Assembly: GCA_964276515.1 (NCBI GenBank)
Contig: OZ193909.1
Span: 1,302,001-1,366,000 of the forward strand
Reading direction: 5' to 3'
From: Gordius albopunctatus
Lineage: Eukaryota
Length of the DNA stretch: 64,000 nt
Shown: positions 8,804-41,800 of the stretch, piece by piece
How positions within the stretch are numbered: the first letter of the stretch is position 1
Layout: every line of letters begins with the position of its first letter
The notes under the pieces: generated by a model
Told to the model about the DNA's origin: nothing
Seen by the model: only the letters and a program-made list of their open reading frames with translations
Database searches by the model: none
Program-made: the position numbers and the translations under genes

Positions 8804-10227
8804 TAAGCATTACGCACCTCCAATTATAAAAATTTTCTGTTATATAATGAATGACCTGTATACTTCCAATTGTCAAAAATATTTTATGCCCAATTAAATT
8901 ATAATAAATTTCATCTTGGTTATGAGTTAACGACAATGGCATCCTCCTAGTTTAAGCTTTAAAAAATTCTTTAAATTTATAAACAAAATAAAGTTTTACT
9001 CTTTAAAGCATCGCAATTATATTAGCATTATTTTTATAAAGACTTAATTAACCTATAACGTTTTTGTAAATGAATAATTGACCCTTAAAAACTTGCTTTT
9101 GACCTTTAGATAGTTATACGAAATATCACTTTTACGAGGTACATTATAGGTTATGGTGTTTTTATAATAATGTTATTTTCTCATATTAATGGTCTACGTT
9201 CACAGTTATAGTGTAAATAGCATATTGTTATTTACTTTATCTTCATCATATTTTAAGTTATTACCTTTTCCATTAACAACCTAACATTTTTAAAAAGTCG
9301 ATTTGGTCTTTTTATCACTTAAAAAACAATCAATATACATTTTCCTTCGCATACTTATAATTTATTTAAAAACTATTTTTTCATTTCAGGCGGGTTTATG
9401 AGGTTAGTTAATTCTGGACTTTAGAGTCTTACTAAATTTAGATTTTTAAATCGAAACTTACATTCAAATTTTACTATGAAAAAACCTTTGCTATATATTA
9501 CGTAATCAACTTACTTTAAACGTGTCTTCAACCGCATGTTGGGAATTAATAATATGTGATAAAGTCTAATTTGCAAAATTAAAATTATTTTGTTTCAAAA
9601 GAAGCTCAAAGAGCCTATTGATGTCACAAAAAACGTTGACAACTCTAATGTCATTTTTTGCGAAAGAGGCATCATTAGCCCACGCTAATTACATTGCCTT
9701 CAAGGAACATTTTTTCGCATATTTTGGCACGACATACAAGCTAAATTACCATCAAAAATACTTCATACATAGGCGTCTTTATAATACCCACAAAATGTCA
9801 TGATTTGCTTACTAGTTTAAAAATGTTTATAATTATCCCAATGAGCGTAGGCAATAATAATTTAAGTAGGGACAAAATGATATATTTTTTTTGGAAATTT
9901 TGGTCATATTTATATTAAATTTTAAAGGATTTTTAAATTTAGAGGGGGGCAGCTGCCCCTTCCTGCCACCCTTTGGCTACACCCATGTTAATCCCGTCCA
10001 CCTCTTATACAAAATTTGGCATTTATACCTTCCCGAGGGAATTATCAAAAGGGAAATTTTAAGTGAAATTCGTAATAACTCCAAATGGGCATGGGCGAAA
10101 TAGGAGTATTTAAAAATAATAATGAAGCAAAATTGATGTTTTTAAAATGTCTCGTATTTGATTTTTCTATATTAAGTTACAGGGGGCGAAGCCGTTTCTT
10201 TTTGTTTGCCTATCAGCGTCCGTACTC

Positions 10228-13200: not shown

Positions 13201-13421
13201 AGTTTTTAAATCAATATATTTTCATAGCAGATCATTTTCGAAAATACGAAAAACTTGTAGCTCGACAATTACCTACTGTAATGCTGATACTTGATCAAAA
13301 AATCGTGCAAAAACTCCCATTTTCACAATTATTTTCTAGCTCATCTGCGAAATTAGAAGTAGAAAGAATTATTAAGTGCAAAAATATGTGTAGAAATATT
13401 AACTGTAGTTTGCTTAAATAA
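10228..13421. repeat. Pair of ~200-bp diverged inverted repeats (~10228-10435 and ~13215-13421), probable long TIRs of an old DNA transposon
   Basis: TTATTTAAGCAAACTACAGTTA...GAAAATGATCTGCTATGAAAATATA is the reverse complement, with scattered mismatches, of TATATTTTCATAGCAGATCATTTTCG...ACTGTAGTTTGCTTAAATAA. Confidence 0.75.
11818..12751 (-). mobile_element. Probable non-autonomous Helitron-like element with internal ~340-bp tandem duplication
   Basis: Units ~11930-12265 and ~12270-12620 are near-duplicates, followed by a partial third; the minus strand begins TCTATATATATATAG and a CTAG lies at 11818-11821. Confidence 0.45.
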
Positions 13422-21949: not shown

Positions 21950-23233
21950 TGTTTCATTGCTTGACCCCTTCCCTTTCTAGAGTTAAAAGTTTTTTATTTA
22001 CACCAAATTATCTTAATATTTTTGAATTTATTATTTATTTATAAAATTCGTAAGGTTTGTTTTTTACTCTAAAATCGTTTGCCCGATTATATCGCCAATC
22101 AATTAATTTGTGTTTTATTGATTGATTATAGACAAAAAGCGATTTTTCATCGTTGTATCAATAAACCTCTTTACATAAAAAACTCTTTGTAGCGTAGATA
22201 GTTCTACTTAGCCTAAAAATTGGAATTAATTGAAATTACCTTTTCTAAATTTAATCAAACACACGTGTCTGGAACGCATCTTTTTAAAGCGAGAGCGCTT
22301 AAACTTTAGTTTTCAATGTCAAATCGGTACTATTCAGCCGATCATATCACGATTTCTTAGAAACTAAGAATATTTGTATTAAATTCCATAAGATTTAACT
22401 TATTTAGACCTCTAATTTTTTAGTTGTGATTGCTCAAAGATCAGAAATCGGCCTTTTAGAACATCTGGTTATGAAGCTGATTTCATAAAATTTCCTAGTT
22501 AATCGTAAAATCTTGTAGGTACAGGTAAGACCGGGCTGTCTGCATAGAAAAAATATTTTTGACCGATTGCTCATCTATTTGTTGTTGTTAAATCGTTTTA
22601 AATTTAAAACAAACGTTTTTTTACCGCCTATAAAACAATTTTAATGAGAATGGGATTTGGACGACATTAAATAATGACCAAAAGTTAAAATGAGTAATAT
22701 TAATTTTGGCGCCAAAATGACTACAAAAAATATGTTAATGCTAGTTAACATTCTTATAAGTATCTATAAACAATAATTTGCTGAGGAATAATCAAAAAAG
22801 ATTGAATAAGCGAGTGCCGTTTTCAATTAATAGGCAAGAAGATTGTTTTTATTACAGCAACTTCTTAAAGCAACTATACAACAGTAAAATGTTTTTAGGT
22901 ACAAATATTTTTTAATATTTTTTTCCCGTAGTATTGCAGTCTAAAACTCTTAATCGCAAATCGGATTATCGCGGAAATCTTATCGCGATATTAACAAAAA
23001 CATCGTTAATTGACTGACAAATCGCTTAATAGTACAATATTGGATATTCACAAACATTTTCGAGTTCTTAAATCAACCATACAATTATATAAAATATCGT
23101 TTTATTGCGAAGCGTAGGAAATGAATATTTACTATATGTCTTTATATATTTAATATTTTCTCTTTTTCCATCGTTTAAAATATGTGATCGCGTACAATGA
23201 ATAAGTGAAAAATCGGGGTGTGTATAGAAAACG

Positions 23234-23340
23234 AAATTTAGGGAATAGGCTTGGGGACAAGTCGGGCGAAACAGGTGAGGAGGGTGTCACGTAGGAAAAA
23301 AGACAAGTGACACCCGGAGGGCAGACGGGTGTATTTATAC
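23234..23340 (-). promoter_or_regulatory. Terminal direct repeat of family 1 with TATA box, Inr-like motif and stem-loops (second copy 26023-26129)
   Basis: Minus strand: TATAAATA, then TCACTT ~30 nt downstream; inverted repeats ACACCCG/CGGGTGT and GGGTGTCAC/GTGACACCC. Confidence 0.6.
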
Positions 23341-23358
23341 CAGGATGCGTAGGGTTTG

Positions 23359-25206
23359 CTAGGGTTCTAGATCGACTATTTCGACCGGTATTTCGTTTTC
23401 CCAAAAACCTAGATCGATGTCGTCTTCCTCTGGAAGCCCATGCTGGAGGATATAATCGATATCTGTGTTTGTTTGCTCCCTGTCTGGTACTTCGGGGGCC
23501 CATACTCGAGACGGGTGATCGGCCGGGTTCAGATGTGTTGGAATCCAGGATAGGTTAAAGTGTATGTTGAGCAAGTGTTTGATGCCCCATGTTTTAACGA
23601 AGGTGGCTACGACTTCCTCGATAACTGGGGAGTTAGATCCCCCTTTTTTGAGTACGTAATATGCTGTGGCTGAGTCAGTGAATAGCTTTGGGTGATCGTG
23701 CCCGCTAAGGTATGAGCGGACGTAACCGTATAGAACGGCCACGGTTTCTGATAGGGTGATGTGATACGGTTCCCTCCATTTCCATCCCAGAAAAGCTGCC
23801 GCGTTTTGGAAGCTATTAGAGTGTTCTCCGTAGTCATCCATTATCCCGATATGCGATCCCGATGCATCAACGTAGACGATATTGGATGGCTTGACCCAGA
23901 GCGGTATGGTTTCGTGTGTAAGCTTTAAGATACCCATGAGTTTATGTGCGGCGAGGCTTCTATCGAACCATGGGGGGTTGTCTCTTGTGAGGCTGTAAAA
24001 ACTGGAAAAGAGTTTAGACATACCCGTGAGATTGTAAAAAAAGTAGTTGAGGATGCCCAGCGCTTCGAGCAATGTGTTTGCGGGGACGTCTCGTGTGAGT
24101 GCCAGGAAAAGGATGTCGGCTGCGATTTGAAGTCGGTCCGCGGTTCCCGGTTTGCATTTGACGGCGGAGACGTCGAGCTTCAGCTCCATTCCCAGGTATT
24201 CTATGCGTTGGGACGGCATGATGGAGGATTTGCTTACGTTAATCGTGAGGCCCCATGCTTTAGAAAGATCAGCCAGGGCTTCGAGGTCTTCTTGAACGTT
24301 GTCATATTCGTGAGAGTATATTAACAGGTCGTCCAGGTAGACGTTGTACTTTGAGTGCTTGATGGCTTTTTTAGCTAGGTCGCTAACGATCATTTGAAGC
24401 ACAAACGGGGAGAAGGAGGCTCCCATCGGGAGTACGTTGTACTCGTATGGTTTTCTCCTCCAAACGTATCCCAGATATTTCTTGGTGCTGGGGTGAATGG
24501 GTATGGAGAAGAATGCGGCCTTGAAGTCTATTTTGGCCGCCCATCTGGCTGCTGCTAGGTGCTTGGCGGTGAGTGGTATATTTGCCAGTTTCAAAGGTTT
24601 TGGCAGAAAGTTCCTAGAAGCATGTGACAAATCTGTGATTACCCTGGCATCTCCATTTGGTTTAGCAATGAAGAACGTGGCCGAGCGGATTAGGAGTTTC
24701 GCTGTCCTTGATACAATACCCGCTTTTAGCATTTCCGGAAAGTAGGCCGGAGGTCCCTTTGAGTATCTTTTCGATTTAGGAGGTTGTATCAGCCCTCCAT
24801 TTAATCGGATGTTGTAGGCATCGAGGATGGCCTTGTAGCCATAGGTGGCTACCTTTTTGCTAAACGGCGACATGAGGTCGTGTGGCGTGAGGCGCGAAGT
24901 TCTGATATCGAGGGCCCCGCTTGGTTTAACAGAAGAAGACGCTCTGCTCCAGCCAAAAAGCACTTTGTGCTCTTGTATTAGGGATCGGATTTGTCCCGAT
25001 CCCGCGTCCCGGACGAGGGAAGGCTCGGAGTCCGTGAGTCGTTGCTCTGACTCAGTAGGAGATGGCGGAGCGTCAGTGTGTGGCGGCGGAGTGGACGGCG
25101 GTGTATCCGGCAGCTTCGGTTCGTCGTCATTTGGCGGTGAAAAGATAATGCGTCGCGCTTCCCTAAGAAAATGAAAAACACTTTTAAGCCACATGGGGGA
25201 AGCCAT
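23359..25206 (-). CDS. Reverse transcriptase-RNase H polymerase (DIRS/hepadnavirus-like); frame open upstream to 25392
   Basis: FFIAKPNGDARVITDLS, KIDFKAAFFSIPIHP, LPMGASFSPFVL, YLDD, KS..PSQRIEYLG; RNase H VDAS, ITLSE, TDS, WIPTHLNPADHPSR. Confidence 0.93.
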   Translation of the reverse strand: MASPMWLKSVFHFLREARRIIFSPPNDDEPKLPDTPPSTPPPHTDAPPSPTESEQRLTDSEPSLVRDAGSGQIRSLIQEHKVLFGWSRASSSVKPSGALDIRTSRLTPHDLMSPFSKKVATYGYKAILDAYNIRLNGGLIQPPKSKRYSKGPPAYFPEMLKAGIVSRTAKLLIRSATFFIAKPNGDARVITDLSHASRNFLPKPLKLANIPLTAKHLAAARWAAKIDFKAAFFSIPIHPSTKKYLGYVWRRKPYEYNVLPMGASFSPFVLQMIVSDLAKKAIKHSKYNVYLDDLLIYSHEYDNVQEDLEALADLSKAWGLTINVSKSSIMPSQRIEYLGMELKLDVSAVKCKPGTADRLQIAADILFLALTRDVPANTLLEALGILNYFFYNLTGMSKLFSSFYSLTRDNPPWFDRSLAAHKLMGILKLTHETIPLWVKPSNIVYVDASGSHIGIMDDYGEHSNSFQNAAAFLGWKWREPYHITLSETVAVLYGYVRSYLSGHDHPKLFTDSATAYYVLKKGGSNSPVIEEVVATFVKTWGIKHLLNIHFNLSWIPTHLNPADHPSRVWAPEVPDREQTNTDIDYILQHGLPEEDDIDLGFWENEIPVEIVDLEP

Positions 25207-25282
25207 GTCTTTATCACCGTGGGGAATCGGTAAGCCATCAGGCCCGAATTCCCAGTTTGCTGCTGCTTTGTGAAGGCGCTTT

Positions 25283-26011
25283 CTAACCCCTGGCAGGGGC
25301 CGCGTCCTTTTTGACGTTGCGACCCTTAGGTGCGCCTCCGCCCCTGCCAGCTCTCGGAAAAAACTGCCTTCGTTGGGCGTCTTTTTTGACGTCTACGTCC
25401 GGCATTCTCATTTCTTTAAGCCAGGCCGAGTCTTGTGAGGCGGCTGTTTGCCAGTTGAATTTTATCGCAAGACACATCTTCTTGAGTTGGTCGTCTATTG
25501 GGATTAATTCTTCTAGGGTCATCGGTATTCGAGTGAGTTTCGCGCAATGTATCGCGAATTTAGCCTCGTGCTTGTCTCTCTTGGCTGCCTTGTTGTCGGG
25601 GTCTAGGATTAGTTCTTCTAGGCCCCGTCGGTGCAGGTTGATATCATCCAGTACCGATGCGATTGTGCGCGGAGGTTCTGGTGCTGGCATGATTTGGAGA
25701 GTTGACGGTGCCCCCTGCTGCGCATTTGGTGGCATTGTGGGGGTAGAAGCCATAGGTACGGGCCCCAGTGATGTCCGCTGTAGCAGTTGCTGGAGGGCCT
25801 CAGTTTGAACCCTTTGGGCTTCGGCTTGTCTTGTTAGGGCGTTAACGGCCGTTTCCTGCATAGTGGCTATTCTAGCCAGTAACCCCTCAACCGCATTGTC
25901 AGAGCCCATTCCAGACCTTAAGGTCGTATTAGTAGGAGGCGAGGTCATAGAAGTTTCTGGAGTTATTAAGAAAAAACTATTATGTTGGTCTTGGGACCTT
26001 GTATTCACCAT
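25283..26011 (-). CDS. Gag/core-like ORF1 of retroelement copy A
   Basis: 242 aa directly upstream of pol; coiled-coil-like N-terminus, Pro-rich linker, helical domain (KHEAKF, KFNWQTA), RG-rich basic tail; conserved in copy B and family 2. Confidence 0.7.
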   Translation of the reverse strand: MVNTRSQDQHNSFFLITPETSMTSPPTNTTLRSGMGSDNAVEGLLARIATMQETAVNALTRQAEAQRVQTEALQQLLQRTSLGPVPMASTPTMPPNAQQGAPSTLQIMPAPEPPRTIASVLDDINLHRRGLEELILDPDNKAAKRDKHEAKFAIHCAKLTRIPMTLEELIPIDDQLKKMCLAIKFNWQTAASQDSAWLKEMRMPDVDVKKDAQRRQFFPRAGRGGGAPKGRNVKKDAAPARG

Positions 26012-26377
26012 TCACTATTAAAAAATTTAGGGAATAGGCTTGGGGACAAGTCGGGCGAAATAGGTGAGGAGGGTGTCACGTAGGAAAAAAGACAAGTGAC
26101 ACCCGGAGGGCAGACGGGTGTATTTATACATTGGATGCCTAGGGTTTTGTTATGGTTCTAGATCGACTATTTCGATCGGTATTTCGTTTTCCCAAAAAGC
26201 CAGGTCAATGTCGTCGCCGTTTGGAAGCCCGTGCTGGAGGACGAAATCGATGTCCGTGCTAGTTTGCTCGCTATCCGGTATGTCGGGGGCCCATTGCCGG
26301 GATGGTTTATCGGCCGGGTTCAGGTGTGTCGGTATCCATGATAAGTTGAAATGTATGTTGAGCAAGTGTTTAACCCC

Positions 26378-27330
26378 TAGAGGTGTGCACGCATCAATCC
26401 GATCCGATCCGTCCGAACTCGGATCGGATCGGATCGGATTAACATTTTAATTTTGGAGATCGGATCGGATCGGATCAACATTTTATTTTAGTCGGATCGG
26501 ATCGGATACAATAATAATTAAATTAATAATTTTTAGTATACCTTTTCGTAATTATCTTTGCATTCTTTTTTTACTTTACCATTTTTGATGCCCAATACCA
26601 CCTCCTTACCCCTTACTTACCCTAATATATTTATCAGAATTTCCCTAGCGTTTTTCCCTAGCTAGACGTAGACACGCATCTCTTTCTATTTGATTTCAAC
26701 TCAACTCCGAAAATCATCAATCACTCCTCTCCCCTTTCCTTAAAGCACACGCGTAGCTCCTTTCCCTCTTGATTCCTATCCGGGTAATCATGAATGATGT
26801 AGCTTGCCTTCTTAGAAGCAATCTCCATGGTGCGATTGCAAATATGATTCAAAAAAAGATTTGCTGAAATGGTGGGTTTCATATCAAACAGTCCTGCCAA
26901 GGCTTTATAAGCTGGCAAATAAATTTTTAGCTATACCTGCTACCTCTACCACTTCGGAAAGAAATTTCTCGGTGGCTGGAAGAACATTAGAAGAAAGAAG
27001 AACGGGAATTAAACCAGAAAATTTAGATTCTTTATTATTTTTATATAATAACATGGAATTAGTCAAATAAAATTTTATATTTCAAGTATATTAAAATTGC
27101 TATACCTTATTTTTATGTATTTTGAATTTAATCATCAATAAAAAGTTCTGTTCGTAAAATTTTAATTAAAAAATTTCGGATCGGATCGGATGGGATTTAG
27201 ATTTTAAAAAACTCGGATCGGATCGGATTTAGATTTTAAAAAACTCGGATCGGATCGGATGGATACGAAATTTTTTAAAAACCCCTCGGATCGGATCGGA
27301 TCAAAAAAATTTGATCCGTGCACACCTCTA
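26378..27330 (+). mobile_element. Non-autonomous hAT inserted in the RNase H region of copy B
   Basis: TIR TAGAGGTGTGCACG / CGTGCACACCTCTA; TSD TTAACCCC (26370-26377, 27331-27338); (ATCGG)n subterminal repeats; ORF 26861-27070 LKWW..LAIPATSTTSERNFS. Confidence 0.95.
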
Positions 27331-29384
27331 TTAACCCCCCACGTTTTCACGAAGGTTGCTATTACTTCTTCGATGACGGGGGAATTCGATCCCTCTTTTT
27401 TAAGCACGTAGTAGGCTGTAGCCGAGTCTGTTATCAGCTTGGGGTGATCGTGGCCGCTGAGGAAGGAGCGGACGTACCCGTAGAGGACTGCTACCGTTTC
27501 GGATAGGGTAATGTGGTATGGTTCCCTCCATTGCCATCCGAGGAACGCTGCCGCATTTTTGAAGCTGTTGGAGTGTGGCCCGTAGTCGTCCATTATCCCG
27601 ATATGTGTCCCTGACGCATCTACGTAAACGATATTGGACGGTTTGACCCAGAGCGGTATGGTCTCGTGAGTTAACTTCAGGATCGCCATGAGTTTGTGTG
27701 CGGCTAAGTCCTTGTCAAACCATGGAGGATCGTCCCTTGTGAGGCTGTAGAAGCTAGAAAAAAGCTTGGACATACCCGTAAGGTTGTAGAAGAAGTAGTT
27801 GAGAATACCCAACGCTTAGAGTAGTGTGTTGGCCGGAACGTTTCGTGTTAGTGCTAGGAAGAGGATATCTGCTGCCACTTGTAGTCGATCCGCTGTTCCT
27901 TGCTTGCATTTGATGGCCGAGACGTCGAGCTTGAGCTCCATGCCTAAGTATTCGATGCGTTGTGATGGCATGATTGAAGATTTGGCCACGTTAATTGTTA
28001 GGCCCCATGCCTTGGCTAGGTCTGCTAGGCTTTCCAAGTCCTCTTGGACGTTGTCGTAATCGTTAGAGTATATTAGGAGATCGTCCAAGTAAACGTTGTA
28101 CTTTGATCGTTTGATTGCCTTCTTGGCCAAATCGCTCACTATCATTTGGAGCACGAAAGGGGAGAAGGAGGCCCCCATGGGGAGCACGTTATATTCGAAC
28201 GGTTTCCTTCTCCATACGTAGCCTAGGTACTTTTTGGTGCTCGGGTGGATTGGTATAGAGAAGAACGCGGCCTTGAAATAGATTTTGGCCGCCCATCTAG
28301 CCGCCGCTAGGTTCTTGGCTGTGAGTGGTATATTGGCTAGCTTCATGGGTTTGGGGATGAAGTTTCTAGAAGCATGTGAGAGATCGGTAATTACCCTAGC
28401 ATCCCCGTTGGGTTTTGCTATGAAGAAGGTGGCTGAACGGATTAAGAGTTTCGCCGCTCTGGATACGATGCCTGCTCGTACCATTTCCGTGAAGAAAGCC
28501 GGGGGGCCCTTTGAATACCTTTTCGATTTGGGGGGTTGTGTTAGCCCCCCATTCAGCCTGATCGTATACGCATCTAAGATGGCCTTGTAGCCCGATGTGG
28601 CTACTTTCCTGCTAAACGGCGACATGAGCTCGTGCGGCGTTAAGCGCGAGGTCCGTATGTCGAGGGCGCCGTCAGGTTTAGCGGTAGAGGACGCTTTACT
28701 CCAGCCGAAAAGCACCTTGTGTGCTTGTATCAGGGATCGGATTTGTCCCGATCCCGCGTCCCGGACGAGGGAAGGCTCGGAGTCCGCAAGGAGCTGTTCC
28801 GATTCTGTCGGAGATGGCAGGGCGTCGGTATGTGGCGGCGGAGTGGACGGCGGTGTGTCCGGCAGCTGCGGCCCGTCGTCATTCGGTGGCGAAAAGATTA
28901 TGCGTCGCGTCTCCCTAAGAAAGTGAAAAACACTTTTAAGCCACATAGGGGAGACCAAATCTGAGTCGCCATGGGGAGTCGGTTAGCCGTCTGGCCCGAA
29001 CTCCCAGTTTGCTGCTATTTTGTTGAGGCGTTTTCTAATTCCTGGCAGGGGGCGCGCCCTTTTTGACGTTGCGGCCCTTAGGTGCGCCTCCGCCCCTGCC
29101 AGCTCTCGGAAAAAACTGTCGACGCTGGGCGTCCTTCTTGACATCATCCACGTCCTGCATTCTCATTTCCTTGAGCCTTGCGAGGCAGCTGTTTGCCAGT
29201 TGAATTTAATGGCAAGGCACATTTTCTTAAGCTGCTAAACGCTAAATACCGTAAAACTTCTTAAGAATTTTACTATAATTCACCACCCTATTTTTCTCAT
29301 ATTTATCGTTTCTCGCACTCTGTCCGAACCTCTGTCGCTCGTAGATATAAAATTTTTACCCACCTTTTTCCCAAAATCTAGTAT

Positions 29385-30106
29385 ATGCCAAGGAAAGTCC
29401 CCTCGAAAAGCGTTGACGACATTCCCTTAAGTAAGTTCTTTTCGAAGTCAACCACGCAACTAGATAATACCACTGTCATGGCCTCCCCTAACAAAAACTC
29501 GATGATCGCCAACCCGGAAGGTAGCACCACAGTCTCGGATCCGGCTATTAAGCTGATCCTGAGTAGGTTAGCCGAGATGGACGCGAAAATTGATAACAGG
29601 CTACTCAGTGGTAGTGGAGAAACGATCAATGTGGACGATCGGCCACATTGGGCTCCGGCCCTACCCTCGGAGTCGGTCACAATGACTAGGGCCGAACTAG
29701 AGGCGTTACTAGCGACAGAAAGGGCTCGAGCAACAAACGTCCCTAGCTCCAGCGGAGAGATATTGAAACTCCGCCTCAAAGGACTCAAGGAAGCTATCGA
29801 AACAAATTACTCAATGCCAGCCCACCAGAAACACGAGGCCGAATTCCTTCTCAGCATGGGGAATCCATAAATGACTACGATAAGACAATCGACAAATTGT
29901 CAGACCGTGTTCGCACAATTGCAATGGCCTCATACTACGGGTGGCAGGCAGTAACAGGAAAATCTAAAGACTGGGCGGAGAAGATGGGTATGGGGCAATA
30001 CACTGAGCCCGTGCAGCTTTTTCGCCCGCCTCCTAAATACAATGGTCCAAGGAAGAGAGGCGCTTACCAAAAAGGGCCGGCTCCGTCTCGGACGGAGAGA
30101 ACGTAG
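29385..30106 (+). CDS. Gag/core-like ORF1 of family 2, split by a 1-nt frameshift near 29860
   Basis: ORFs 29385-29870 and 29897-30106 join through ATGGGGAAT; the joined protein aligns with family 1 gag (GLKEAI/GLEELI, KHEAEF/KHEAKF, YGWQAV/FNWQTA, WAEKMGM/WLKEMRM). Confidence 0.72.
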
Positions 30107-31952
30107 TTATGTGAGGAAGGTATCGGCGACCCTCGGCTGTGGTGTAAACCCGCCGAGGTCGGTGAGGGATGGTACTGTTCCGGCATGGCTTAACAACTAC
30201 ACCGCCATTGCCAGAAGCATCGCTATTAATTCCATCTCTCCCGACGATGGCCCGGAGTTGGAGGAGCCGATTCATCCTACCAACGCGCCGATACCGGAAC
30301 ATACAAGTGTGCCGGGGCACCTCCTAAACCAATGGACGGAGGTGGGTTTGGATAGCGACAACCCACCTATCATCAGCGAACCGTCCAATATCCCCTCTTT
30401 CCCCTCCCATCCCCTATCATCCTTCATTAACTTTACTCATCCTTTATCTATCCGAACATCTCTCCTCAAGCCCCATTATTTGCAATCAAAATTCACCCTC
30501 AGAGTGGCTAGAAGAGGTTTCAAACCTCGGATATCCAGGGCAGCTATTGTGGCTAACAATGGGCGTTACCACTTGCCTCGATATGTCAAAGCTATCCCCA
30601 AAGAGCATAAGCCACTGGTGGACGAGGTGATACTCAGCAATATCGTAAGGAAAAACCCACTGGGTATTCCTTCCCCTATGTATTTCATTCCTAAAAGTGA
30701 CGGCTCGCCAAGGCTCATTGCGGACTTGTCACAGGTCTCCAAGAATTTCATCAAATATCCTTTTACAATCAAGTCCATTCCTCTGATCGCATCATCATTA
30801 TCTGACTCACTATACATGACTAAGATAGACATGAAGTCTGCCTTCTTCTCTATTCCTTTAGCAGTTGAATCATCAAAATTCTTCGGTTTTCGATACAGAC
30901 GGCAGAAATACACATACAAAGTGCTCCCGATGGGGGCAAGTTTCTCGCCATATGTTTTACAACAAATCATGCTAGACCTATGTAAAAAATCAATTACAAG
31001 ATCCAAGTACAACGTTTATTTGGATGATATCCTCATTTTTGGGCGGTCAGAAACCTTAGTTAAAGCCGATACTCGGCGTTTCTTATACATGGCCAAGTGC
31101 TGGAACTTAACAATAAATCGGGCCAAATCATCATTGGAACCAAAAACTACTTTGGATTACTTAGGGATCCACGTAAACCTAGAAGATCATAGCCTAAAAG
31201 TGAACGCGAAATTCATATCCAAAATCGACGCGGCAGTACAAATCATCAACCACTTTGTGGACACGGGAACAAAGCCACACCCCCTGGTTTCCCAAACATG
31301 CTTAGGAATCCTCACGCATTATGTATATATGCTGACAGGGTGGTCAAAATTCATCTCCCCGGCCTATAACATCTTTCTGGCCAGTGATCCAATCAACTTC
31401 GACAAATCATGGTTGATCAGGAAGCTTCTACTCATTCAAAACCATCTCTCAACCCCCTTTTCCATGAAGCACTCTCCTAATGGCTTCACAGCCGGCGACG
31501 CCTCCACGTCCCACATTGGCCTTTTTTATAGAGGTTCCATCCTCTCAATTGCCAAAGGGGACGCGTTAGCCATCTTTGGCTGCCACAGCCTCATTCCTAC
31601 CATTAACCTTCTAGAACTGGTTGCCATCCCCTTAGCTTACATCTGGGCACTGGTCACCACACCGCACATCACACCTAAAGTCCTCACGGACTCCAAAACA
31701 GCATTCTACATTGTGAAGAAGGGTTCGGCACACGCTCCACACCTGGAACTGGCCTTCACGAAAATCTGCAGCACCCTGGGGCTAGATCACATGTTACGTA
31801 TCAAGCAAAACCTCGAATGGGTCAGCACGGACCACAACCCGGCGGACGCACCATCACGCGAAAGCTTTTTCAACGACGAACAACTGGGCAGGATCGTTTA
31901 CTGGACGCGCTCAAACATTTCATATCACCCAGAACAACAACTAATTTGCTAA
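30042..31952 (+). CDS. Reverse transcriptase-RNase H polymerase of family 2 (intact ORF)
   Basis: YFIPKSDGSPRLIADLSQVSK, KIDMKSAFFSIPL, LPMGASFSPYVL, YLDD, DYLG; RNase H GDAS, INLLE, TDS, WVSTDHNPADAPSR. Confidence 0.93.
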   Translation: MVQGREALTKKGRLRLGRRERSYVRKVSATLGCGVNPPRSVRDGTVPAWLNNYTAIARSIAINSISPDDGPELEEPIHPTNAPIPEHTSVPGHLLNQWTEVGLDSDNPPIISEPSNIPSFPSHPLSSFINFTHPLSIRTSLLKPHYLQSKFTLRVARRGFKPRISRAAIVANNGRYHLPRYVKAIPKEHKPLVDEVILSNIVRKNPLGIPSPMYFIPKSDGSPRLIADLSQVSKNFIKYPFTIKSIPLIASSLSDSLYMTKIDMKSAFFSIPLAVESSKFFGFRYRRQKYTYKVLPMGASFSPYVLQQIMLDLCKKSITRSKYNVYLDDILIFGRSETLVKADTRRFLYMAKCWNLTINRAKSSLEPKTTLDYLGIHVNLEDHSLKVNAKFISKIDAAVQIINHFVDTGTKPHPLVSQTCLGILTHYVYMLTGWSKFISPAYNIFLASDPINFDKSWLIRKLLLIQNHLSTPFSMKHSPNGFTAGDASTSHIGLFYRGSILSIAKGDALAIFGCHSLIPTINLLELVAIPLAYIWALVTTPHITPKVLTDSKTAFYIVKKGSAHAPHLELAFTKICSTLGLDHMLRIKQNLEWVSTDHNPADAPSRESFFNDEQLGRIVYWTRSNISYHPEQQLIC

Positions 31953-32836
31953 ACGCTAAATACCGTAAAACTTCTTAAGAATTTTACTATAATTCACCAC
32001 CCTATTTTTCTCATATTTATCGTTTCTCGCACTCTGTCCGAACCTCTGTCGCTCGTAGATATAAAATTTTTCGCGCGTTAGTTATACACAAAAAATCACA
32101 TGCATAATTTTCATGCTTTATAATATATATTTTATGCATATGAGGATGATAAAATAAAACAAGAGTTAGGGGAATATCCCATTGGGACTTCCCCTTCTCA
32201 AATTTTCTAGAGTCATTGAGCTTCGCACAATTGATGGCGAACTTAGCCTCGTGTTTGTCCCTCTTTGCTGCCTTGTTATCAGGGTGGATCAGCTCCTCCA
32301 GGCCTCGTCGGTGCAGGTTAATGTCATCTAAGACTGAGGCAACCGTGCGTGGTGGTTCCGGCGCTGGCATAATCTGGAGGGTCGAGGGCCCCCCTGGTTG
32401 CGTGTTTGGCGGCAACGTGGGGGTGGAAGCCATAGGTGCGGGCCTCAGCGAAGTCCGCTGTAATAATTTCTGTAGGGCCTCGGTCTGTACTCTTTGGGCT
32501 TCGGCTTGTCTTGTAAGGGCGTTTACGGCCGTTTCCTGCATGGTGGCTATTCTAGCCAGCAACCCTTCTACAACATTGTCAGAGCCCGTTCCTGACCTTA
32601 AGGTCACATTGGTAGGAGGTGAAGTCATAGAGGTTTCAGGTGTAATTAAGAAAAAACTAATCGTTTAATCGCGAATTTTTTTCAGGCCCAAGGCTCTGCA
32701 ATTAAACGGTTTCGACTGTATAAGAAAGATTTGCTATGGAATTTGCATGCGAGCGTTATTTTACAAATTTGTGAACAAGATTCTTTATATATTTAAAGGG
32801 GTTTGTAGAAAGTGATGTTTTGTTTGGTCGATTTTT

Positions 32837-34527
32837 AATTGCTATGCAATTTATGGCTTGGCTCGCTTTCCATTTTACGAATGTCGTCTTGTTTAACTAG
32901 TTTTTGGCTTCGAAACCCGGGGATTTTTTTGACGCTTTCCATTTTCCGAGTCTTGCACGAACAGTAGCATAGATCTCCCTCGCTGTGTTAGACCTCCCCA
33001 CATCATCCCTCTCTCCTTATCGATTTTTTTAATTAAAACGAGATACGTGCGGGAATCGAAACTAGTATCTATTGAAGCTAAGTGAGACGTTTAATCCGCT
33101 GAGCTATTACACCTGAAAATATTTATGGGATAATATCACTTATATATAGCTATAACATTTATTTTTTTTAAATTAAATTAATATTATGTTTTTGTTACCA
33201 TTGATATTTACCCTATGCCCGTCAGTCCAATTATTTAGAGATTCTCGCCCCTTCCCACCTTTCTCACCCATAAATTGCATAGCAAATATGCTACTTTTAT
33301 ACAGAGTATAGAAGAGTTCCCCCTTCCCTTCCCCTACTCCCATTGCCCCCTTCCTCTTACCACGAGGGCCGAAGCCTCGAGTTTTATGATTGTTCCTGTT
33401 ACTACCAATGCTATTATAACTTTTTGGCCGTCCGCTGGCTGCTGACCGATGGAAAAAATGACCATTGGCCAAAATGTGAATCGAAATTATTTTTTTCGTT
33501 TTTTTAGGCTAACATTGACAATTACCCTATGCCCTCCCCTAACAGAGCCTAAAAAAATATTTTTTTAATTAAATTTTTTTTCCGGTTTTTTTGACTCTTA
33601 TGATTGTTCCTGTTAATACCATTTGATAATATGGCTTATTGGCCGTCCGCTGGCTAGTGATCAATGAAAAAAATGACCATTAGGCAAAGTAAGCATCAAA
33701 ATTTTTTTTCTCGTTTTTTTGGCTAACAATGACTTAAAGAGTATCTGTTGGTACTGACCAATGGAAAAAAATGACCATTGGCCAAAGTGTGTATCGAAAT
33801 TTTTTTTTCGTTTTTTTGACTCGTATGTATTTATAGACCGTCTCTTGATACTGACCAATGGAAAAAATGACCATTGGCCAAATTGTAATTTAAAATTTTT
33901 TTTTCGTTTTTTTGACTCGTATGTATTTATAGACAGTCTCTTGGTACGGATCAATGGAAAAAAATTACCATTAGGCAAATTATGATTCGAATTTTTTGTT
34001 TCGTTTTTTTGACTCGCATGTATTTATAGACCGTCTCTTGGTACTGACCAATAAAAAAAATAAACATTGGCCATATTGCTTAAGTAAAGGCTAAAATTTC
34101 AAAATGCTCCTCCCAAAATCATTATTTTAGTTTTTGAATAGGTTAACATTGATAAATTGCCCTATGCTCTCCCCTACAAGTACCTATGTTTCTACTGATA
34201 TGGGTCCCTGTGCCCCTCCCTACAAAGGCTTATGCCTCTATTTAATGTGGGTTCGAATCCCGGCGAGGGCAATTTTTTTTTTAATTAAATGGAAAATTTG
34301 TATAAATAATTAACTAATCATTTTGCATTTAATACCCCTCTATAGGCATTTTCGCCCCTTCCCACCTTTCTCGCCCATATTTTTTAATTAGATGGAAAAT
34401 TTGTATAAACATTTTGCATATAACGCCCATAAATTGCATAGCAAATATGCTACGTTTATACGGAGTATAGATGAGTCGTCCCCCCTTCCCTTGTCCCCTC
34501 CCCAAGAGGGCCGAAGACCCGAGTTTT
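32837..34527 (+). mobile_element. Helentron-associated / DINE-1-like non-autonomous element with internal ~78-bp tandem array
   Basis: 5' subterminal IR AATTGCTATGCAATTTATGG after a T-run; its inverse CCATAAATTGCATAGCAAAT at ~33268 and ~34427, each followed by GAGGGCCGAAG(CCT/ACC)CGAG-TTTT; tandem units ~33420-34080; interrupts a MITE. Confidence 0.65.
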
Positions 34528-35886: not shown

Positions 35887-38800
35887 CTATTTTGGTGCAT
35901 CTCCTTTCCCAATTATAGTCTTGTGGTCTTCGGAGGGTTCCTCTTTCAAAAATTGACTAATTTTCTCCTGAAATAAATGGACCATAAATGTTATAGTTAC
36001 GAAAAGTTTAATGTAATAACAAATTTAGAGTAAATTAAATGAAAGTATATTTTAGCTTACGCCAGGTTCACACATTAAAGAGAAGGTTATATTTTTCATG
36101 TGCAGATGTGTAATCTTATGTTTGATAAATCGTACTTTTATCATGTAATATGTGTATTTGATTGGTATTTTTAGTGTGCGAATTAAAATGCCTTAGATGG
36201 TGTAAAGCATTTCATTTGCTGCAATCGAGTGGTTTATTGCCTTTCATAAATTATAAATGGTAAACTCTACACATAATACTTTGATGCATCAGTGTAATTA
36301 AATTAACTGTACAAACAAAACGGATAAACTGAACGTAAGGAAAAATTATTTGTCTTTCAGATGAGGAGACTGCTTCATTAGCTATTAAACAAATCGGTAA
36401 TTTCAACTGGCAATTTTCAGACAAAATTTAATAACTTTTATTTGTCGTTAAATATATCAATGCTTCTCTCAAACCTAGATTATAAATTTTTCCAATAACC
36501 TTGATTTAAATTTAGTAAGATTAATAAGGAATCACCATAAATATCGGCTAAAATCGTAGTAGAGTTACCTTTAATTCCGGATCTAAATCCTCGAATGGGA
36601 TGGGATAGCCTCGACCGTCGTCGTACAAAGTTTCTTCAAAAGTTTCCGTCTCTTCTTTCCCATCTTTGATTATAGTCCGACTTTTGGTGGATTTCATTAT
36701 TTTAAGCCTGAAAATAGAAAAATTAGTTGGGCGTTTTCACCCATGCAATTCGACAGGAGGTCCGAAATATTTATTACGTCGAGTAAATAGATTTATTTTA
36801 GTACTATTTTATTTGACAAATTATAACGTTTAGATATCTGCGCTTGAATTATAACTCTTTCAACGCGTTGCAAGTCCCTCTCGAATTTATATTATTTTAT
36901 AAATTTAATGACAAACCTTTTCCGTTCTCAACAGGAATTTTATTTAAAGAATCAAAAATGAAAAGAGAAATTACCTCTTTAAAACTGATTCCCCCTCACG
37001 CTCGTGCTGACTTTCCGAGTGTTGATGATCTTCGGATGTGTCTGCCGAATGAGTAATAAAAAATAAACTTATATACGCCTAAAAGTTAAAGCCACGATAA
37101 GGGCAATTATAAGCGCTGGGGGCTGTTTACATAGACACCAATTTCACGAAACCAGGACGAACGCGAAGCGAAAGCAAAATGGCGAGATAATATATATGTG
37201 TGTGTGTATCGTTGGTGTTGGTAAAACGGGGCTGCGTTTTGTTTGCTCGACCTTTCGTCTGTTTTTCAAATTTCGACCAAGCTTTGGGGTCGACAAAAAC
37301 CAAGGTCGACCCCCAAAGAAGCCAGCCGTTTTACCAAAACTACACAATGTGTATCATGTAGTACTGGATGAAGGTAACGTAGGAGTAGTTGTGAAAGATT
37401 TCAATTTAGAGGCGGCGGTGGACGACGATGATAGGTTAGAAGAATGAAAAGTGTTGCTGAGACTGGCTGTGGTAGCAATAGTGGTATCCTGATTCAGGGT
37501 TTCGGGCGGAGGGGAGCAAGCAAAAAAATGTCTATCTTCGGTCAAAAAAATTGGTTCACCCGCGGTCGTTGCGGGAACAGCTGATAGGGTACCAGCCATC
37601 GCCTCGGCTTTAGGTTCGTCTTGAGGAAGAGGCAATGCACCGGTTATAATGTCGGGTCCGGGCTGAGATGATAATTTTCTCTTGCGGACCGGCAGGTCGT
37701 GGCCCGTAAAAATTCGCGTTACCGGGGCGTAAGGTTCGTTGGCGAATATACTAGGAGCCGCCGCGTGATTTGAATCGTGAGAGCCGTAAACCCAAGGCAA
37801 CAGTCGCTGCTGTTCCCCACCACTACTCTCCACGACCGACGAGCGAGCTGTGGTCGTGGTGGAAGAAGATGGGTCCGCTGGTTTGGAACGAGCTCGACCG
37901 TTGCTGGAAGAAAGTGTTGAGGGCGGAGCCGACGGAATTTTAGAAGACTTGACTGGCGTTTGCGAGACTACGACCTTGCTACTACTAGTACTACTCATCT
38001 TTTTACCGAGCGTCGTTTTTTGTTCGCTCAACACAATTTGCTGTTGCTTACTCGAAGACGACGACTTGCCATGGCTTCGCGTTTGACCCGTAGTTGTTGT
38101 GGATACAGTTTTACCAACTACCACGTGATTCGCCGATGATAAAGTTTTTTTGGAGTTAGAAAAGTTGTCGCGCGAACGTAATCGCCCCTTTTCCGCCACG
38201 TGACTTTCGGATGAGGATTCTTCCGTTACCACCTTGTTAGACCGTTTAGGTATGCCGGTGTGTGTCAATCTTTTAGTGGACTCTTTGGGGGGCGAAGGTT
38301 TTTGTTTGGCGTTGAAAACGCTTTTAGCGGTGGTGACGGAAAAAGCAGTTTTAGGGCCGGTAAATGGCTTAGATTGACGATGGGGGGACATTCGCTGCTT
38401 GCGTACCGATCTAGAAGTTTTGGGAGAAGGAAACTTGGATGGCCTTGCAGGCGAAGAATACAATTTCGCATTCAACGATGTAAGGGAAGAAAGCATCTTT
38501 TTCCTTTCTCCTCCCTTGCCCGAATCGTTGCTGCCCTGAAAAAGGGTGTCGTCGTTTAAACTTTTAGCATTTCTCCCCGTTGCACCTTCGATATCCAAAT
38601 CGTCCATTGATCTTCTCTCCAAATTTGAATTGATTAAATCGTATTCGGTGACGAACGCCTCAACCTTTTTGGACGTAGATTCGATAATGGCTTCTAATGA
38701 TTCACAATCCATCACCGGGGGACTGATAATCGTTATATCACTTTGATCCATGGATTTCGTTTGAATTACGGGCTCCGGTTTACTCAGCCACACGAAATCA

Positions 38801-41800
38801 TCTTTTTCGTAGGAGCTAGAACCTCCAGAATCTGTATGATCTGTCGAGTAAGCCGACAATCTCATTTCCTCGTTCGTTTCCTCACAACCTGTCTCAGTAA
38901 CCTCGACCAGAGGTGAAACACTGGGAGGCGTATCGCTGTTTCCCCCCTGAGCCATTATGATGGACTCCAACTCCCGGAACCGCTGCAACGATATGTCGTC
39001 CCCGTTACTACTATTAACGAAAGTTTTAGTGGTCGTGGCAGGCGAGATAGGTACTACGACAGGTACAACCTCCTCTATTTTCTTATCTCCTTCACCATCA
39101 CTTAAAGGGTTTTCGCGATTGGACGGAGTATCCCCGACCAAATCGGTGGCTGCGACAGGTAGGATTCGAAATCCAGCTAGTGGGGTAGCTTCTCGGTCCT
39201 CTTCGTAGGTGGAGGCTGAGGCTTTGCAGTCGTCCATGGTAAGGATGGGAGGAAGGGGGGAAGATGGTCGGCGTTCGCCGAAGCTACTCGATTCGCGATA
39301 GCCGGTTCGAGACATGGGCCTCGTTATTAACATTTGTTGCCTAGGCGTGGCTTGATTATCCCTCAGGCGATCGCTACCACTACTCTCCTCTTCCCAAGAC
39401 GAAAGTATATCTAGCGAGCCTTCCATCCCTTCTTCAACGAACGATTCGTCCTCGTTGGAATAATAATTATCGAAGGCGGATGACGTTTCTTCGTCCTGTG
39501 AAGCGGTACCCGAAGTGGGTCCGTAACTGTACAAATTATCGCTCACCGTGGGCGGCAAACGAGTTGTCGTCGTGGTAGTAGTCGTGACATTTCCCTCCCT
39601 ATTACTTTGAGGTGGTGGTAGGTAAGGAGCCTTTTCTTCCGGCAAGCTAGGCATCGGAGAGGCCCGAGCCGTAGTGCTGCAACTCAAGGCGTCTTCTTGG
39701 GATAAGGGACCCCCACCACCGCTCACGCAGGTGTAGAACGATGAAGTGTCCCCTCCACCGGTTAAGCCACCGCTAACGGCCGACGCAAAATCTCTGGTGC
39801 GTACGCTATCTGCCGTCTCGTAGTCGCCAGTTTCGTCGCACGCCAAAGAATCGTCGTTATTTTTGCGAAGGAAATCGAAGGATTCGCCGCCTGACGAATC
39901 GTTGTTGGAAGATGTTAGGGAAGTTATGAGTAACTGCGACGTGGCTAGATGTAGGGGAGCGGGTTGATCCGTACCAATTTCCTTGGGCGTTATGGCGGAG
40001 GGAGAGCCCACGTCGCTACTATCCATGGCAGCGTCGTGGGTTATGGGTGATTTGAGCGCTACAATATCATCCTTCTTAACGTCGCTAAGTATCGGCGTTT
40101 GGAGGTCTATTAATTTTCTATTTTCGGGCATCGAGAAGTTTTGCCCCTCTTATCACCAAAAAGGCAAAATAATTAGCAGCGTCATTATCAAGTTTCCAAA
40201 GACAACGGTACATGCTTCTCCAATTGCTCGCGAAACGACACGTCATGCGTCGATTTTCGGTGCAGCCTAGAGTAGTAATACGCTCACGATTGGTTTTACC
40301 ATGCTTCATATTTACAACGACCTTTCGCCCTGGGCACGGCTTTATTAATAACGGCAACTTCAAGCAGGCAGGCAGGCAGACAGAGAGCCAGCCAGTCAGC
40401 AAGCAGGCGCTTCAGCTATGACGCAGTAATTGTTACGTTCTGTCGATGTGATAGCAATGAGTCGGGAAATTTAGAAATCAGACTAAAGATAGGTGATTGG
40501 ATTGAGAGAAATAAAGGAAAACTATTTATTATTACTAAATTTTGAGTTTATTTTGCTTAGATTTCCCTTCGTTCTACACGATAAAACTTGACAAACGATA
40601 GAGTTATTGATGGGAAATGAAGGTTTAGAACACGAATACCGTCAGGTCGCTACGCAAAGCTGGCTCACATTTATCATGCGAAAGCGTACAATCCACACAC
40701 GACATCGAATATAAGACATATTATAAAGCATATAAAGATGGAAATACGTGATTTAATATGGGCAAAATAAAACAAATTAAGCATATTTTATAACTCAAAA
40801 TCATACGAAAGATTAATTTCTAATCATCTGGACACATAGAAAAAAGTCATAAGAGCCTTGCAAATTATGGCCTAAAACTTAAAAATTATATTAAACATCA
40901 ACCTTTATATTTATTTAAGCCAGTTGCTACATATACTGTAAAAATATAAAAACATGCATATTATTTTAAAAAATATGGCGTAAAAGGTTAAAAATATTTG
41001 TATATTGTCAGTAAATGGCGCTCACGACATATAGCTCTCTCTACAATCACTCAACACCGCACGAATGATTCGATTAGATGCAATCGGCATTTGATACGAG
41101 CACGACAAATCTACCGTGCTACAATTGTACACTGGACTTTAGGTTTTGTGACTAGAAAGGAGGTTGGAAGCGACGTATATCAACGCGGACAACGGACACG
41201 TACGTACACCACTGTAAGCCTCTACACCCCACGATGATATAATACCTCGGGAGAGGGGTGTTGTCGGAGTGTTGAGGGCCGATCTCGTTAAATATCGTCT
41301 TTTGCACTCTTCGTCCGGCGAATAATCCAAAGTTTCCAAGGCCCGAGCCATCGCCGTTCCACTTAAATACCTACCGAATTTTTCCACGTTTGGCCCGGGG
41401 TGGGCAGATGTCAAAGGAGAACGTTCGAGGTCAGAGCCTTCGATTTGCTCCCAAGCAGTTAAATTAATGTTTGTGTCATCACTATCGTAATCGGTTTCGC
41501 GCCTGTCGTGACCCGCGTACAGTTTAAGTGAAGCGGCACTCTTAGGTGGTACAGAAGAAGTCGTAGTAGTGGAGTAGCGGGTTACTAGACGCTCGCTTAG
41601 CTTCTCGCGGGAGCTTTTGAGTTGCGCAGTGTCGTGCTCTTCCACAACTTCCAACGCTTTATTCAAAGCCTCCCGACTCACCCGCTGTACGATTTGACTT
41701 AGGGTGGAAGAAGCGGCACCGTCATTATCCAAATCCCAACTGCCTCCACTACCACCATTACTACTAATAACGCTTCTAGACCCCGGTGAAGAGACGTTGG

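What the first reader, a model, noticed from the sequence alone, without database searches (positions are those of the whole stretch)
23100..32660. Integrase-less ~2.7-2.8 kb retroelements intermediate between DIRS and hepadnaviruses: candidate new class of retroelement or endogenised pararetrovirus
Seen: three copies from two very divergent families share one layout, short direct repeat-gag-RT/RNase H-repeat, with units of 2789 and 2714 bp. No ORF for a tyrosine recombinase, DDE integrase, endonuclease, protease or envelope is present and there is no room for one. Known: DIRS elements carry a YR; hepadnaviruses and nackednaviruses have ~3-kb circular genomes with core plus P and no integrase; hepadnavirus-related HEART retroelements are reported from insects. 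Inference: the same minimal layout in two distant families argues against chance deletion, suggesting a lineage replicating as episomes or virus-like particles and integrating without its own integrase.
Basis: partly seen in the sequence, partly recalled or inferred. Interest (0 to 1): 0.93.

Follow-up and report, generated by a model that had tools for sequence, protein, structure and literature searches.

The report
Integrase-free, hepadnavirus-related animal retroelement
An animal genome carries multi-copy 2.7-2.8 kb retroelements that encode only a gag-like protein and a reverse transcriptase with RNase H, probably related to hepatitis-B-type viruses, and that likely insert at chromosome breaks without an integrase of their own.

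Summary
The elements are real, but the layout differs from the finding. A (2789-bp unit) and C (2714-bp unit) read repeat–gag–RT/RNase H–repeat. B is 5'-truncated, interrupted twice, and shares A's left repeat. No recombinase or hepadnaviral terminal protein was detected, Pfam found no integrase, protease or endonuclease, and the units leave no room. A versus B shows purifying selection, and contigs show many variant copies.

New features: a unique tail follows the 3' repeat, and a 9-bp duplication brackets the whole cluster inside a host repeat.

A and C are one clade with horsehair-worm (Gordionus) proteins (100/100). On RT+RNase H this clade joins hepadnaviruses and 15 short unnamed polymerases (97/95). 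Grouping with methyltransferase-type DIRS is rejected (AU p=0.028). Grouping with Ngaro-like elements is not (p=0.34), and the RT-only tree leans that way (78/87). HEART, VIPER and nackednavirus sequences were not in the trees.

Best reading: a HEART-grade, integrase-free retrotransposon that likely inserts at breaks as Penelope-like partial tandems. Circles and particles were not shown.

The parts
23170..23178 (.). 9-bp duplication (ATCGTTTAA), left copy; likely target-site duplication of the A+B insertion in a high-copy host repeat
   Evidence: sequence, (3 occurrences in 64 kb, both strands); contigs join 23130->32663 and 23178->32660
23179..23233 (-). 55-bp unique 3' tail after A's downstream repeat
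   Evidence: no second copy in A's body; family status not tested directly
23234..23340 (-). Element A downstream repeat R (107 bp); starts with a TATA-like word, holds a 9-bp stem
   Evidence: fold z -2.9
23359..25392 (-). Element A pol ORF: low-complexity N-terminus, RT (YLDD), thumb, RNase H; intact
   Evidence: AF2 model of RT-RH mean pLDDT 92.9
25283..26011 (-). Element A gag-like ORF, 242 aa: predicted long helix, Pro-rich linker, helical bundle, basic RGG tail; overlaps pol by 110 bp
   Evidence: no homologue found
26023..26129 (-). Repeat shared as A's upstream R and B's downstream R
26130..26377 (-). Element B pol 3' end and spacer
26378..27330 (.). hAT-family non-autonomous insertion into B pol, terminal inverted repeats, 8-bp TSD TTAACCCC (not part of the retroelement)
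   Evidence: PF05699 E 1.1e-19; junctions
27339..29234 (-). Element B pol (in-frame stop at 27816-27818) and 3' part of gag; 81% nt identity to A
29233..29357 (+). Element C upstream repeat R (125 bp); 2-bp microhomology with B at its left edge, no TSD
29385..30106 (+). Element C gag-like ORF, frameshifted near 29.86 kb; homologous to A gag
   Evidence: 1 of 1000 shuffles as good, for each of the two parts
29955..31952 (+). Element C pol ORF (RT YLDD, RNase H), intact; its stop codon lies inside the downstream repeat
31947..32071 (+). Element C downstream repeat R, 100% identical to the upstream copy
32072..32202 (+). About 130-bp unique 3' tail of C, with AATAAA and a terminal hairpin; 3' boundary approximate
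   Evidence: variant at 32077 in 9 contigs (X1) and 3 (X2); fold z -2.9; no copy in C's body
32203..32659 (-). Element B 5' part of gag, 5'-truncated at 32659
   Evidence: other copies continue past 32659 into an A-like gag start (loose ends)
32660..32668 (.). 9-bp duplication, right copy

Best explanation
These are multi-copy gag + RT/RNase H retroelements with no detected integrase or recombinase, probably from the HEART/hepadnavirus side of the RT tree, that likely copy their own RNA and likely enter chromosomes at nicks or breaks made by other enzymes. Shown: the anatomy R-gag-pol-R-tail, two ORFs under purifying selection, many variant copies, a 5'-truncated upstream copy in tandem, and a 9-bp duplication around A+B. 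Inferred: a promoter in the pol end/R drives an RNA ending in the tail; RT starts at the tail, copies to the RNA 5' end, then jumps through R onto the 3' R of the same or another RNA. A short continuation gives C's upstream R; a long one gives the truncated B upstream of A. The cDNA is primed at, or captured by repair into, a staggered break, giving a TSD (A+B) or microhomology with a small target deletion (C). The outcome resembles Penelope-like partial tandems with a tail, but uses an LTR/DIRS/hepadna-type RT with RNase H.
For: No YR (with 36 of 133 loci as positive control); no IN/EN/protease/TP Pfam hit; no TP-profile hit; no spare ORF over 173 aa. A vs B codons: pol 152 synonymous-only vs 40 non-synonymous of 388; gag 59 vs 13 of 147. 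In run X2, 792 contigs lie on 29100-32672, 337 of them under 90% alike. One X2 contig at depth 3568 (single-copy flanks 165-179) covers the pol-to-R spacer at 23357, so pol directly followed by R is not peculiar to this copy. The R-tail junction and the R-leader junction of C are each covered by several variant contigs (32077: 9 and 3; 29362: 3 and 3). TSD and empty-site joints. Trees: RT+RH 97/95 and thumb+RH 99/97 with hepadnaviruses and short pols; DIRS-MT grouping rejected, p=0.028. Three short relatives pass the Pfam cut-off of the hepadnaviral polymerase C-terminal domain PF00336 (P0073, P0108, P0127; 3 of 12 scanned). Partial tandem plus tail is described for PLEs (PMC8557442, passages).
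Against: The RT-only tree joins the clade to a YR-bearing Ngaro-like group (78/87, long branch). AU tests do not reject Ngaro-like (p=0.34) or all-YR (p=0.07) groupings. Profile scores are far higher to DIRS than to hepadnaviruses (the DIRS and short sets were picked by similarity to the query). The window's own pol has no PF00336 hit. Only one TSD was seen; C has none. In X2 an A-specific contig has depth 55.6 against 154.9 for B, which hints that A arrived after B rather than in one event; X1 is unclear (377 and 658 against 512-626). ESM Atlas first hits are unnamed Euglenozoa clusters (0.96; hepadnaviral P is rank 11 at 0.94), compatible with VIPER/TATE, which were not in my trees. No priming, RNA or cDNA data exist.
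Confidence: 0.5

Rival explanations
1. A recombinase-less offshoot of Ngaro- or VIPER-like YR retrotransposons (A1-ORFs-A2-B, with YR and B1 lost) that still makes gag and RT and borrows a tyrosine recombinase in trans.
For: RT-only tree 78/87 with a YR-bearing group; AU p=0.34; the NPADxPSR RNase H ending is common in YR-bearing loci; VIPER-like RNase H groups with hepadnaviruses in PMC6681497 (passages); Atlas hits in Euglenozoa; DIRS-1 RT acts in trans (section heading of PMC7192593).
Against: The tail has no upstream B1 copy, forward or reverse (79-295 of 300 shuffles score as well; one A-tail vs B-pol-end test gave 7 of 300). Thumb+RH tree separates the clade from all YR groups sampled at 99/97. 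A 9-bp TSD and 5' truncation are not expected of YR crossover (own knowledge). Both families have pol followed directly by R.
Confidence: 0.22
2. Endogenised copies of a small circular pararetrovirus-like agent (2.7-2.8 kb, core-like ORF plus P without terminal protein) that replicates as an episome or particle and is captured by repair or by recombination into earlier copies.
For: R covers almost exactly the gap between pol stop and gag start, as a circular permutation would. Unit size matches nackednaviruses (2.7-3.1 kb, PMC11551314). Tree position. A's lower depth in X2 fits a circle recombining into B's repeat. Best BFVD TM-scores are an unnamed 634-aa protein (0.63) and HBV P (0.61) (BFVD holds no DIRS).
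Against: The tail is not part of the circle yet is multi-copy in C. No TP. Both two-repeat copies break at the same place in the map rather than at random. DIRS-type hits lie on similarly short contigs (3181-3685 bp), so contig size is weak. The relatives' DNA could not be fetched.
Confidence: 0.2
3. A minimal LTR retrotransposon with 107-125-bp LTRs, integrated by a DDE integrase supplied in trans.
For: The repeats are 99-100% identical; C's repeat begins with TG.
Against: No CA end, no 4-6-bp TSD at the repeat edges and no purine tract before the 3' repeat (sequence); a tail follows the 3' repeat; RT/RH does not group with Gypsy. A primer-binding site was not tested.
Confidence: 0.06

Closest known systems
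HEART retroelements (Gong & Han 2018; seen only through citing papers and the RT alignment of PMC12691608)
   Same: Invertebrate genomic RT elements placed next to hepadnaviruses; mobilisation mechanism unresolved (PMC12440569). Some short relatives here (P0058, P0118, P0073) resemble the Ixodes HEART rows by eye.
   Different: The 7 HEART rows seen have Y/H-x-D-N at the catalytic motif where readable; these elements have YLDD. The clade joins the HEART-looking rows only at 78/77. HEART terminal structure could not be read.
Blubervirales (hepadna-, nackedna-, proto-nackednaviruses)
   Same: About 3-kb unit, ORF1 overlapping an RT/RNase H ORF, no integrase or protease, RNase H ending NPADxPSR; starred tree grouping.
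   Different: No terminal protein, no core match, no shared epsilon-like stem between A and C, unique 3' tail, many genomic copies with a TSD.
YR retrotransposons: DIRS/PAT (with MT), Ngaro, VIPER/TATE
   Same: gag-like ORF overlapping RT/RH, no protease, direct repeat at the 5' end and near the 3' end, insertion into related elements.
   Different: No YR, no MT tail, no B1/B2 or ICR, 9-bp TSD and 5' truncation, 2.8 kb against about 6 kb for Ngaro (PMC8547959).
Penelope-like elements
   Same: Insertion architecture: 5'-truncated upstream copy, full copy, 3' tail (PMC8557442).
   Different: RT is of the LTR/DIRS/hepadna type with RNase H; a separate gag-like ORF; no GIY-YIG endonuclease.
Gordionus sp. 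uncharacterised proteins XP_065317776.1, XP_065315139.1, CAK9296138.1
   Same: Closest relatives (E 4.7e-115 to 4.3e-60; 35-42% identity; 100/100 clade).
   Different: Unannotated; their genomic context could not be read.

Membership tests
DIRS/PAT (MT-bearing YR retrotransposons) | Tyrosine recombinase ORF | tested here: not met
   no room in the unit
DIRS/PAT (MT-bearing YR retrotransposons) | Methyltransferase-like domain after RNase H | tested here: not met
   pol ends shortly after RNase H and does not align with the C-terminal extension of P0001/P0002
DIRS/PAT (MT-bearing YR retrotransposons) | RT/RH groups with DIRS | tested here: not met
   AU p=0.028 (31 rows, LG+G4); the mixture-model AU test did not finish
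DIRS1-like | Inverted terminal repeats and ICR | tested here: not met
   repeats are direct; tails show no complement in the body; one weak C-repeat reverse match, 2 of 300 shuffles
Ngaro / VIPER-like | YR ORF | tested here: not met
Ngaro / VIPER-like | Split direct repeats A1..B1-A2-B2 | tested here: not met
   A1/A2 present, no B1 copy of the tail
Ngaro / VIPER-like | RT/RH phylogenetic grouping | tested here: inconclusive
   AU p=0.34; RT-only 78/87 for; thumb+RH 99/97 against; no named Ngaro, VIPER or TATE reference in the trees
Blubervirales | P with terminal-protein domain | tested here: not met
   no PF00242; TP profile finds 3 held-out hepadnaviral ORFs at E<1e-52 and neither window N-terminus
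Blubervirales | Hepadnaviral-type core fold | tested here: inconclusive
   gag model pLDDT 57; only generic helical-bundle matches, best Z 9.4; BFVD none at E<=0.001
Blubervirales | Circular extrachromosomal genome, virions | not testable with these tools
   only contigs available
Blubervirales | RT/RH on the hepadnavirus side | tested here: inconclusive
   97/95 and 99/97 with hepadnaviruses plus short pols, but RT-only tree and AU tests leave YR groupings open; nackedna- and proto-nackednaviruses absent from the trees
HEART | RT clusters with HEART1/HEART2 sequences | not testable with these tools
   HEART sequences seen only in a paper supplement; none was returned by the protein searches under that name
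HEART | Element structure as in the original description | not testable with these tools
   paper not held
LTR retrotransposons (Ortervirales) | Protease and DDE integrase | tested here: not met
LTR retrotransposons (Ortervirales) | TG..CA ends with 4-6-bp TSD | tested here: not met
LTR retrotransposons (Ortervirales) | tRNA primer-binding site | not tested
   no host tRNA set was available
Penelope-like elements | PLE-type RT, GIY-YIG endonuclease | tested here: not met
   RT-RNase H matches Ty3, foamy virus and caulimovirus RTs; no endonuclease hit
Penelope-like elements | Partial tandem with 3' tail (works-like feature) | tested here: met
   one locus only

The most novel reading that the evidence does not exclude
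This is the first full-length view of an unrecognised order of retroelements, widespread as 2-3.6 kb units in animal genomes and metagenomes, that have gag and a hepadnavirus-side RT/RNase H but no integrase, recombinase, endonuclease or terminal protein. They would represent the retrotransposon grade from which hepadna-like viruses arose by gaining a terminal protein and core.
Probability: 0.35. Interest if true: 0.93.

Novelty: new variant of a known kind. Interest (0 to 1): 0.78.

Why it matters
The proposed retroelement ancestors of hepatitis-B-type viruses (HEART) are known from few, often mutated sequences, and their way of moving is called unresolved (PMC12440569). Here intact copies with defined ends, a tail, a tandem and a target duplication give concrete, testable predictions for how an RT/RNase H element spreads with no integration enzyme. 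If the tree position holds, they also show what a pre-terminal-protein polymerase and its partner ORF looked like. Repeat annotators would mislabel such elements as broken DIRS or LTR copies.

Tried and rejected
No genome is held, so other copies could be seen only as short contigs. No RNA holder was listed; this says nothing on expression.

The NPADxPSR motif as a hepadnavirus marker: rejected, since it also occurs in YR-bearing and BEL-like loci.

A shared motif between the A and C tails: rejected, 130 of 500 shuffles scored as well. An epsilon-like stem common to both families: not supported (A repeat z -2.9, C repeat z -0.36).

A first YR profile from one seed was too narrow and was rebuilt from Pfam-confirmed seeds.

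Gag searches were blank: homologue search, Atlas, BFVD; PDB gave generic bundles only. No listed capsid match is not evidence against one.

Viral contigs gave no usable locus for A, P0043, P0039, P0061 or P0073. The mixture-model AU test stalled and was replaced by LG+G4 on 31 rows. Earlier-findings look-ups were empty.
Full report
OBSERVATION. The region holds three related retroelement copies in an AT-rich animal genome; neighbours include argininosuccinate synthase, a GT92 glycosyltransferase and ankyrin-type ZU5/UPA exons. Element A (minus strand) has 107-bp repeats 2789 bp apart, a 242-aa ORF and a 677-aa RT/RNase H ORF. Element C (plus strand) has identical 125-bp repeats 2714 bp apart. 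Element B is 81-82% identical to A. It lacks its 5' end, is split by C inside gag and by a 953-bp hAT insertion with an 8-bp TSD inside pol, and ends in the repeat that is also A's upstream repeat. So 2 of 3 copies show the stated layout, and B-A is a tandem.

CODING CAPACITY. Pfam found only RVT_1 and weak RT_RNaseH among the element ORFs (12 ORFs, 9 alternative-frame ORFs). A YR profile grown from Pfam-confirmed seeds detects YR in 36 of 133 fetched loci and 3 stored proteins, yet its best score on the window's six frames, stops read as X, is E 3.4. A terminal-protein profile from 4 hepadnaviral P proteins finds 3 held-out hepadnaviral ORFs and neither window N-terminus. Only 11-27 bp separate the repeats from the ORFs, and no other ORF exceeds 173 aa. 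Both ORFs are under purifying selection between A and B: pol 152 synonymous-only against 40 non-synonymous codons of 388, a further 69 against 12 of 159, and gag 59 against 13 of 147. The RT-RH model is confident (pLDDT 92.9). The gag model is weak (57) and matches only generic bundles. A and C gags are homologous (1 of 1000 shuffles as good, for each part).

FAMILY AND ENDS. Three public runs hold the stretch, all as contigs, and the best holder may be the window's own source. Single-copy flanks have depth 165-179 in X2 and 512-626 in X1; summed depth is no copy number. On 29100-32672, 792 X2 contigs were laid, 337 of them under 90% alike. One X2 contig at depth 3568 covers the spacer between A's pol stop and R, so that junction is not a private deletion. 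In C, position 32077, just past the 3' repeat, varies in 9 (X1) and 3 (X2) contigs, and 29362, just past the 5' repeat, in 3 and 3. Both R-tail and R-leader junctions therefore occur in several variants. The 5' flanks of other copies were not visible, because the tables were cut (569 loose ends not shown). Other copies continue beyond B's end at 32659 into an A-like gag start. The 9-mer ATCGTTTAA flanks the cluster at 23170 and 32660 and occurs 3 times in the window; contigs of the surrounding high-copy repeat join across the 9.5 kb. C's junction has a 2-bp microhomology, a small target deletion and no TSD. The tails have no upstream copy. Against a single A+B event, an A-specific X2 contig has depth 55.6 against 154.9 for B; X1 is ambiguous.

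RELATIVES. A profile search of 1.84 billion representatives gave three close hits, all from Gordionus (Nematomorpha). Further hits were mostly DIRS-type pols with an MT tail, some Gypsy polyproteins, and unnamed pols ending right after RNase H. I picked 22 such 'short' pols by eye. In a 104-row FastTree 17 of the 22 fell with hepadnaviruses and the window clade (SH 90) and 5 fell elsewhere. I dropped those 5 and 2 more before the 57-row careful tree, which may raise support. In that tree (LG+C20+F+G4, 408 columns) window plus Gordionus is 100/100, and together with 5 hepadnaviruses and 15 short pols 97/95. The 19 DIRS-MT rows and 9 other metagenome rows (6 of 9 with a detected YR) lie outside. 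Thumb+RNase H alone gives the same group at 99/97 (P0118 left out). RT alone places the clade beside a long-branched YR-bearing group at 78/87, within a 91/90 group that includes hepadnaviruses. On 31 rows under LG+G4 the larger group had only 64/89. AU tests there: with DIRS-MT p=0.028; with the Ngaro-like rows 0.34, with all YR rows 0.07, sister to hepadnaviruses 0.12. Profile scores favour short pols (284/268 bits) over DIRS (225/206), Gypsy (100/97) and hepadnaviruses (50/43), with selection bias for the first two. The group labels are mine, from domain content; no named Ngaro, VIPER, HEART or nackednavirus row was in any tree. BFVD's best TM-scores were an unnamed 634-aa protein (0.63) and HBV P (0.61, rmsd 4.4), but it holds no DIRS; that the first is a nackednavirus P is my recollection only. 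The Atlas's first hits were unnamed Euglenozoa clusters, with hepadnaviral P at rank 11.

MECHANISM. Shown: R-gag-pol-R-tail, no detected integration enzyme, selection on both ORFs, multiple variant copies, one 5'-truncated tandem with a 9-bp duplication. Inferred: RNA ending in the tail is reverse-transcribed from its 3' end, strand transfer through R rebuilds the upstream repeat or runs on into a second RNA, and the DNA is joined at a break made by another enzyme. A plain circle would not carry a unique tail, and YR crossover would not be expected to give a 9-bp duplication with 5' truncation (own knowledge). I put this at 0.5, YR loss from a Ngaro/VIPER-like parent at 0.22, an endogenised pararetrovirus-like circle at 0.2 and a minimal LTR element at 0.06.

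LITERATURE. PMC12691608: main text parts 1-2 of 3, a supplement search, and part 6 of supplement 4. PMC12440569: part 1 of 5 and passages; it calls HEART's mobilisation unresolved. PMC11551314: part 1 of 2. Passages only: PMC8547959, PMC4157794, PMC8557442, PMC6681497, PMC7955980, PMC12241316. PMC7192593: abstract and outline. The original HEART paper is not held and may already describe a similar structure. Nine searches listed no paper whose title or abstract describes this architecture; subscription journals and Repbase are outside the library.

VERDICT. A real and unusual element family. It fails the defining tests for DIRS/PAT, Ngaro/VIPER (YR, split repeats), LTR elements and Blubervirales (TP). 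It most probably belongs to the HEART-like grade beside hepadnaviruses and works like a Penelope-style, integrase-free inserter. I rate it a new variant of a known kind, interest 0.78, with a 35% chance of being a distinct new order.

Noticed in passing
proteins P0039, P0041-P0043, P0058, P0061, P0073, P0077, P0095, P0103, P0108, P0117, P0118, P0127, P0153, P0157: A diverse set of unnamed RT/RNase H proteins, often with acidic, Pro-rich N-termini and a DAT(P) RNase H motif, mostly on 2-3.6 kb metagenome or Logan contigs, grouping with hepadnaviruses; possibly an undescribed radiation of small retroelements or viruses.
   Followed up: partly
window 26378-27330: Very high-copy hAT non-autonomous element with GATCG-rich subterminal repeats, a transposase C-terminal remnant (PF05699) and an 8-bp TSD.
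   Followed up: partly
window 23359-23420 vs 26150-26210: The last ~60 nt of pol are nearly identical between A and B while the rest is ~82%, suggesting a cis-acting element (promoter?) inside the pol end.
   Followed up: partly
window 25340-25936 (run X2): One 600-bp contig with 81 differences from A has depth 2337, about 13 times single-copy: a young, homogeneous subfamily or extrachromosomal copies.
   Followed up: no
window 37354-50190 and 58026-61548 (minus strand): Giant exons (931, 1291, 1342 aa) upstream of and within an ankyrin-type gene with ZU5 and UPA domains.
   Followed up: no
window 7226-8809 (minus strand): Intronless glycosyltransferase family 92 ORF, 527 aa (PF01697 E 7.9e-43).
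   Followed up: no
window 10251-13399: 186-bp inverted repeats 2.8 kb apart with internal 340-bp direct repeats: probably a non-autonomous DNA transposon.
   Followed up: no
window 33400-34500 and 6230-6485: ~97-bp tandem-like repeat family at very high contig depth, present in both orientations.
   Followed up: no
L083 and L088: Metagenome contigs of 5.4 and 5.0 kb with terminal direct repeats (65 and 123 bp) and divergent RT/RNase H ORFs with no YR detected; possibly circular retroelements.
   Followed up: no
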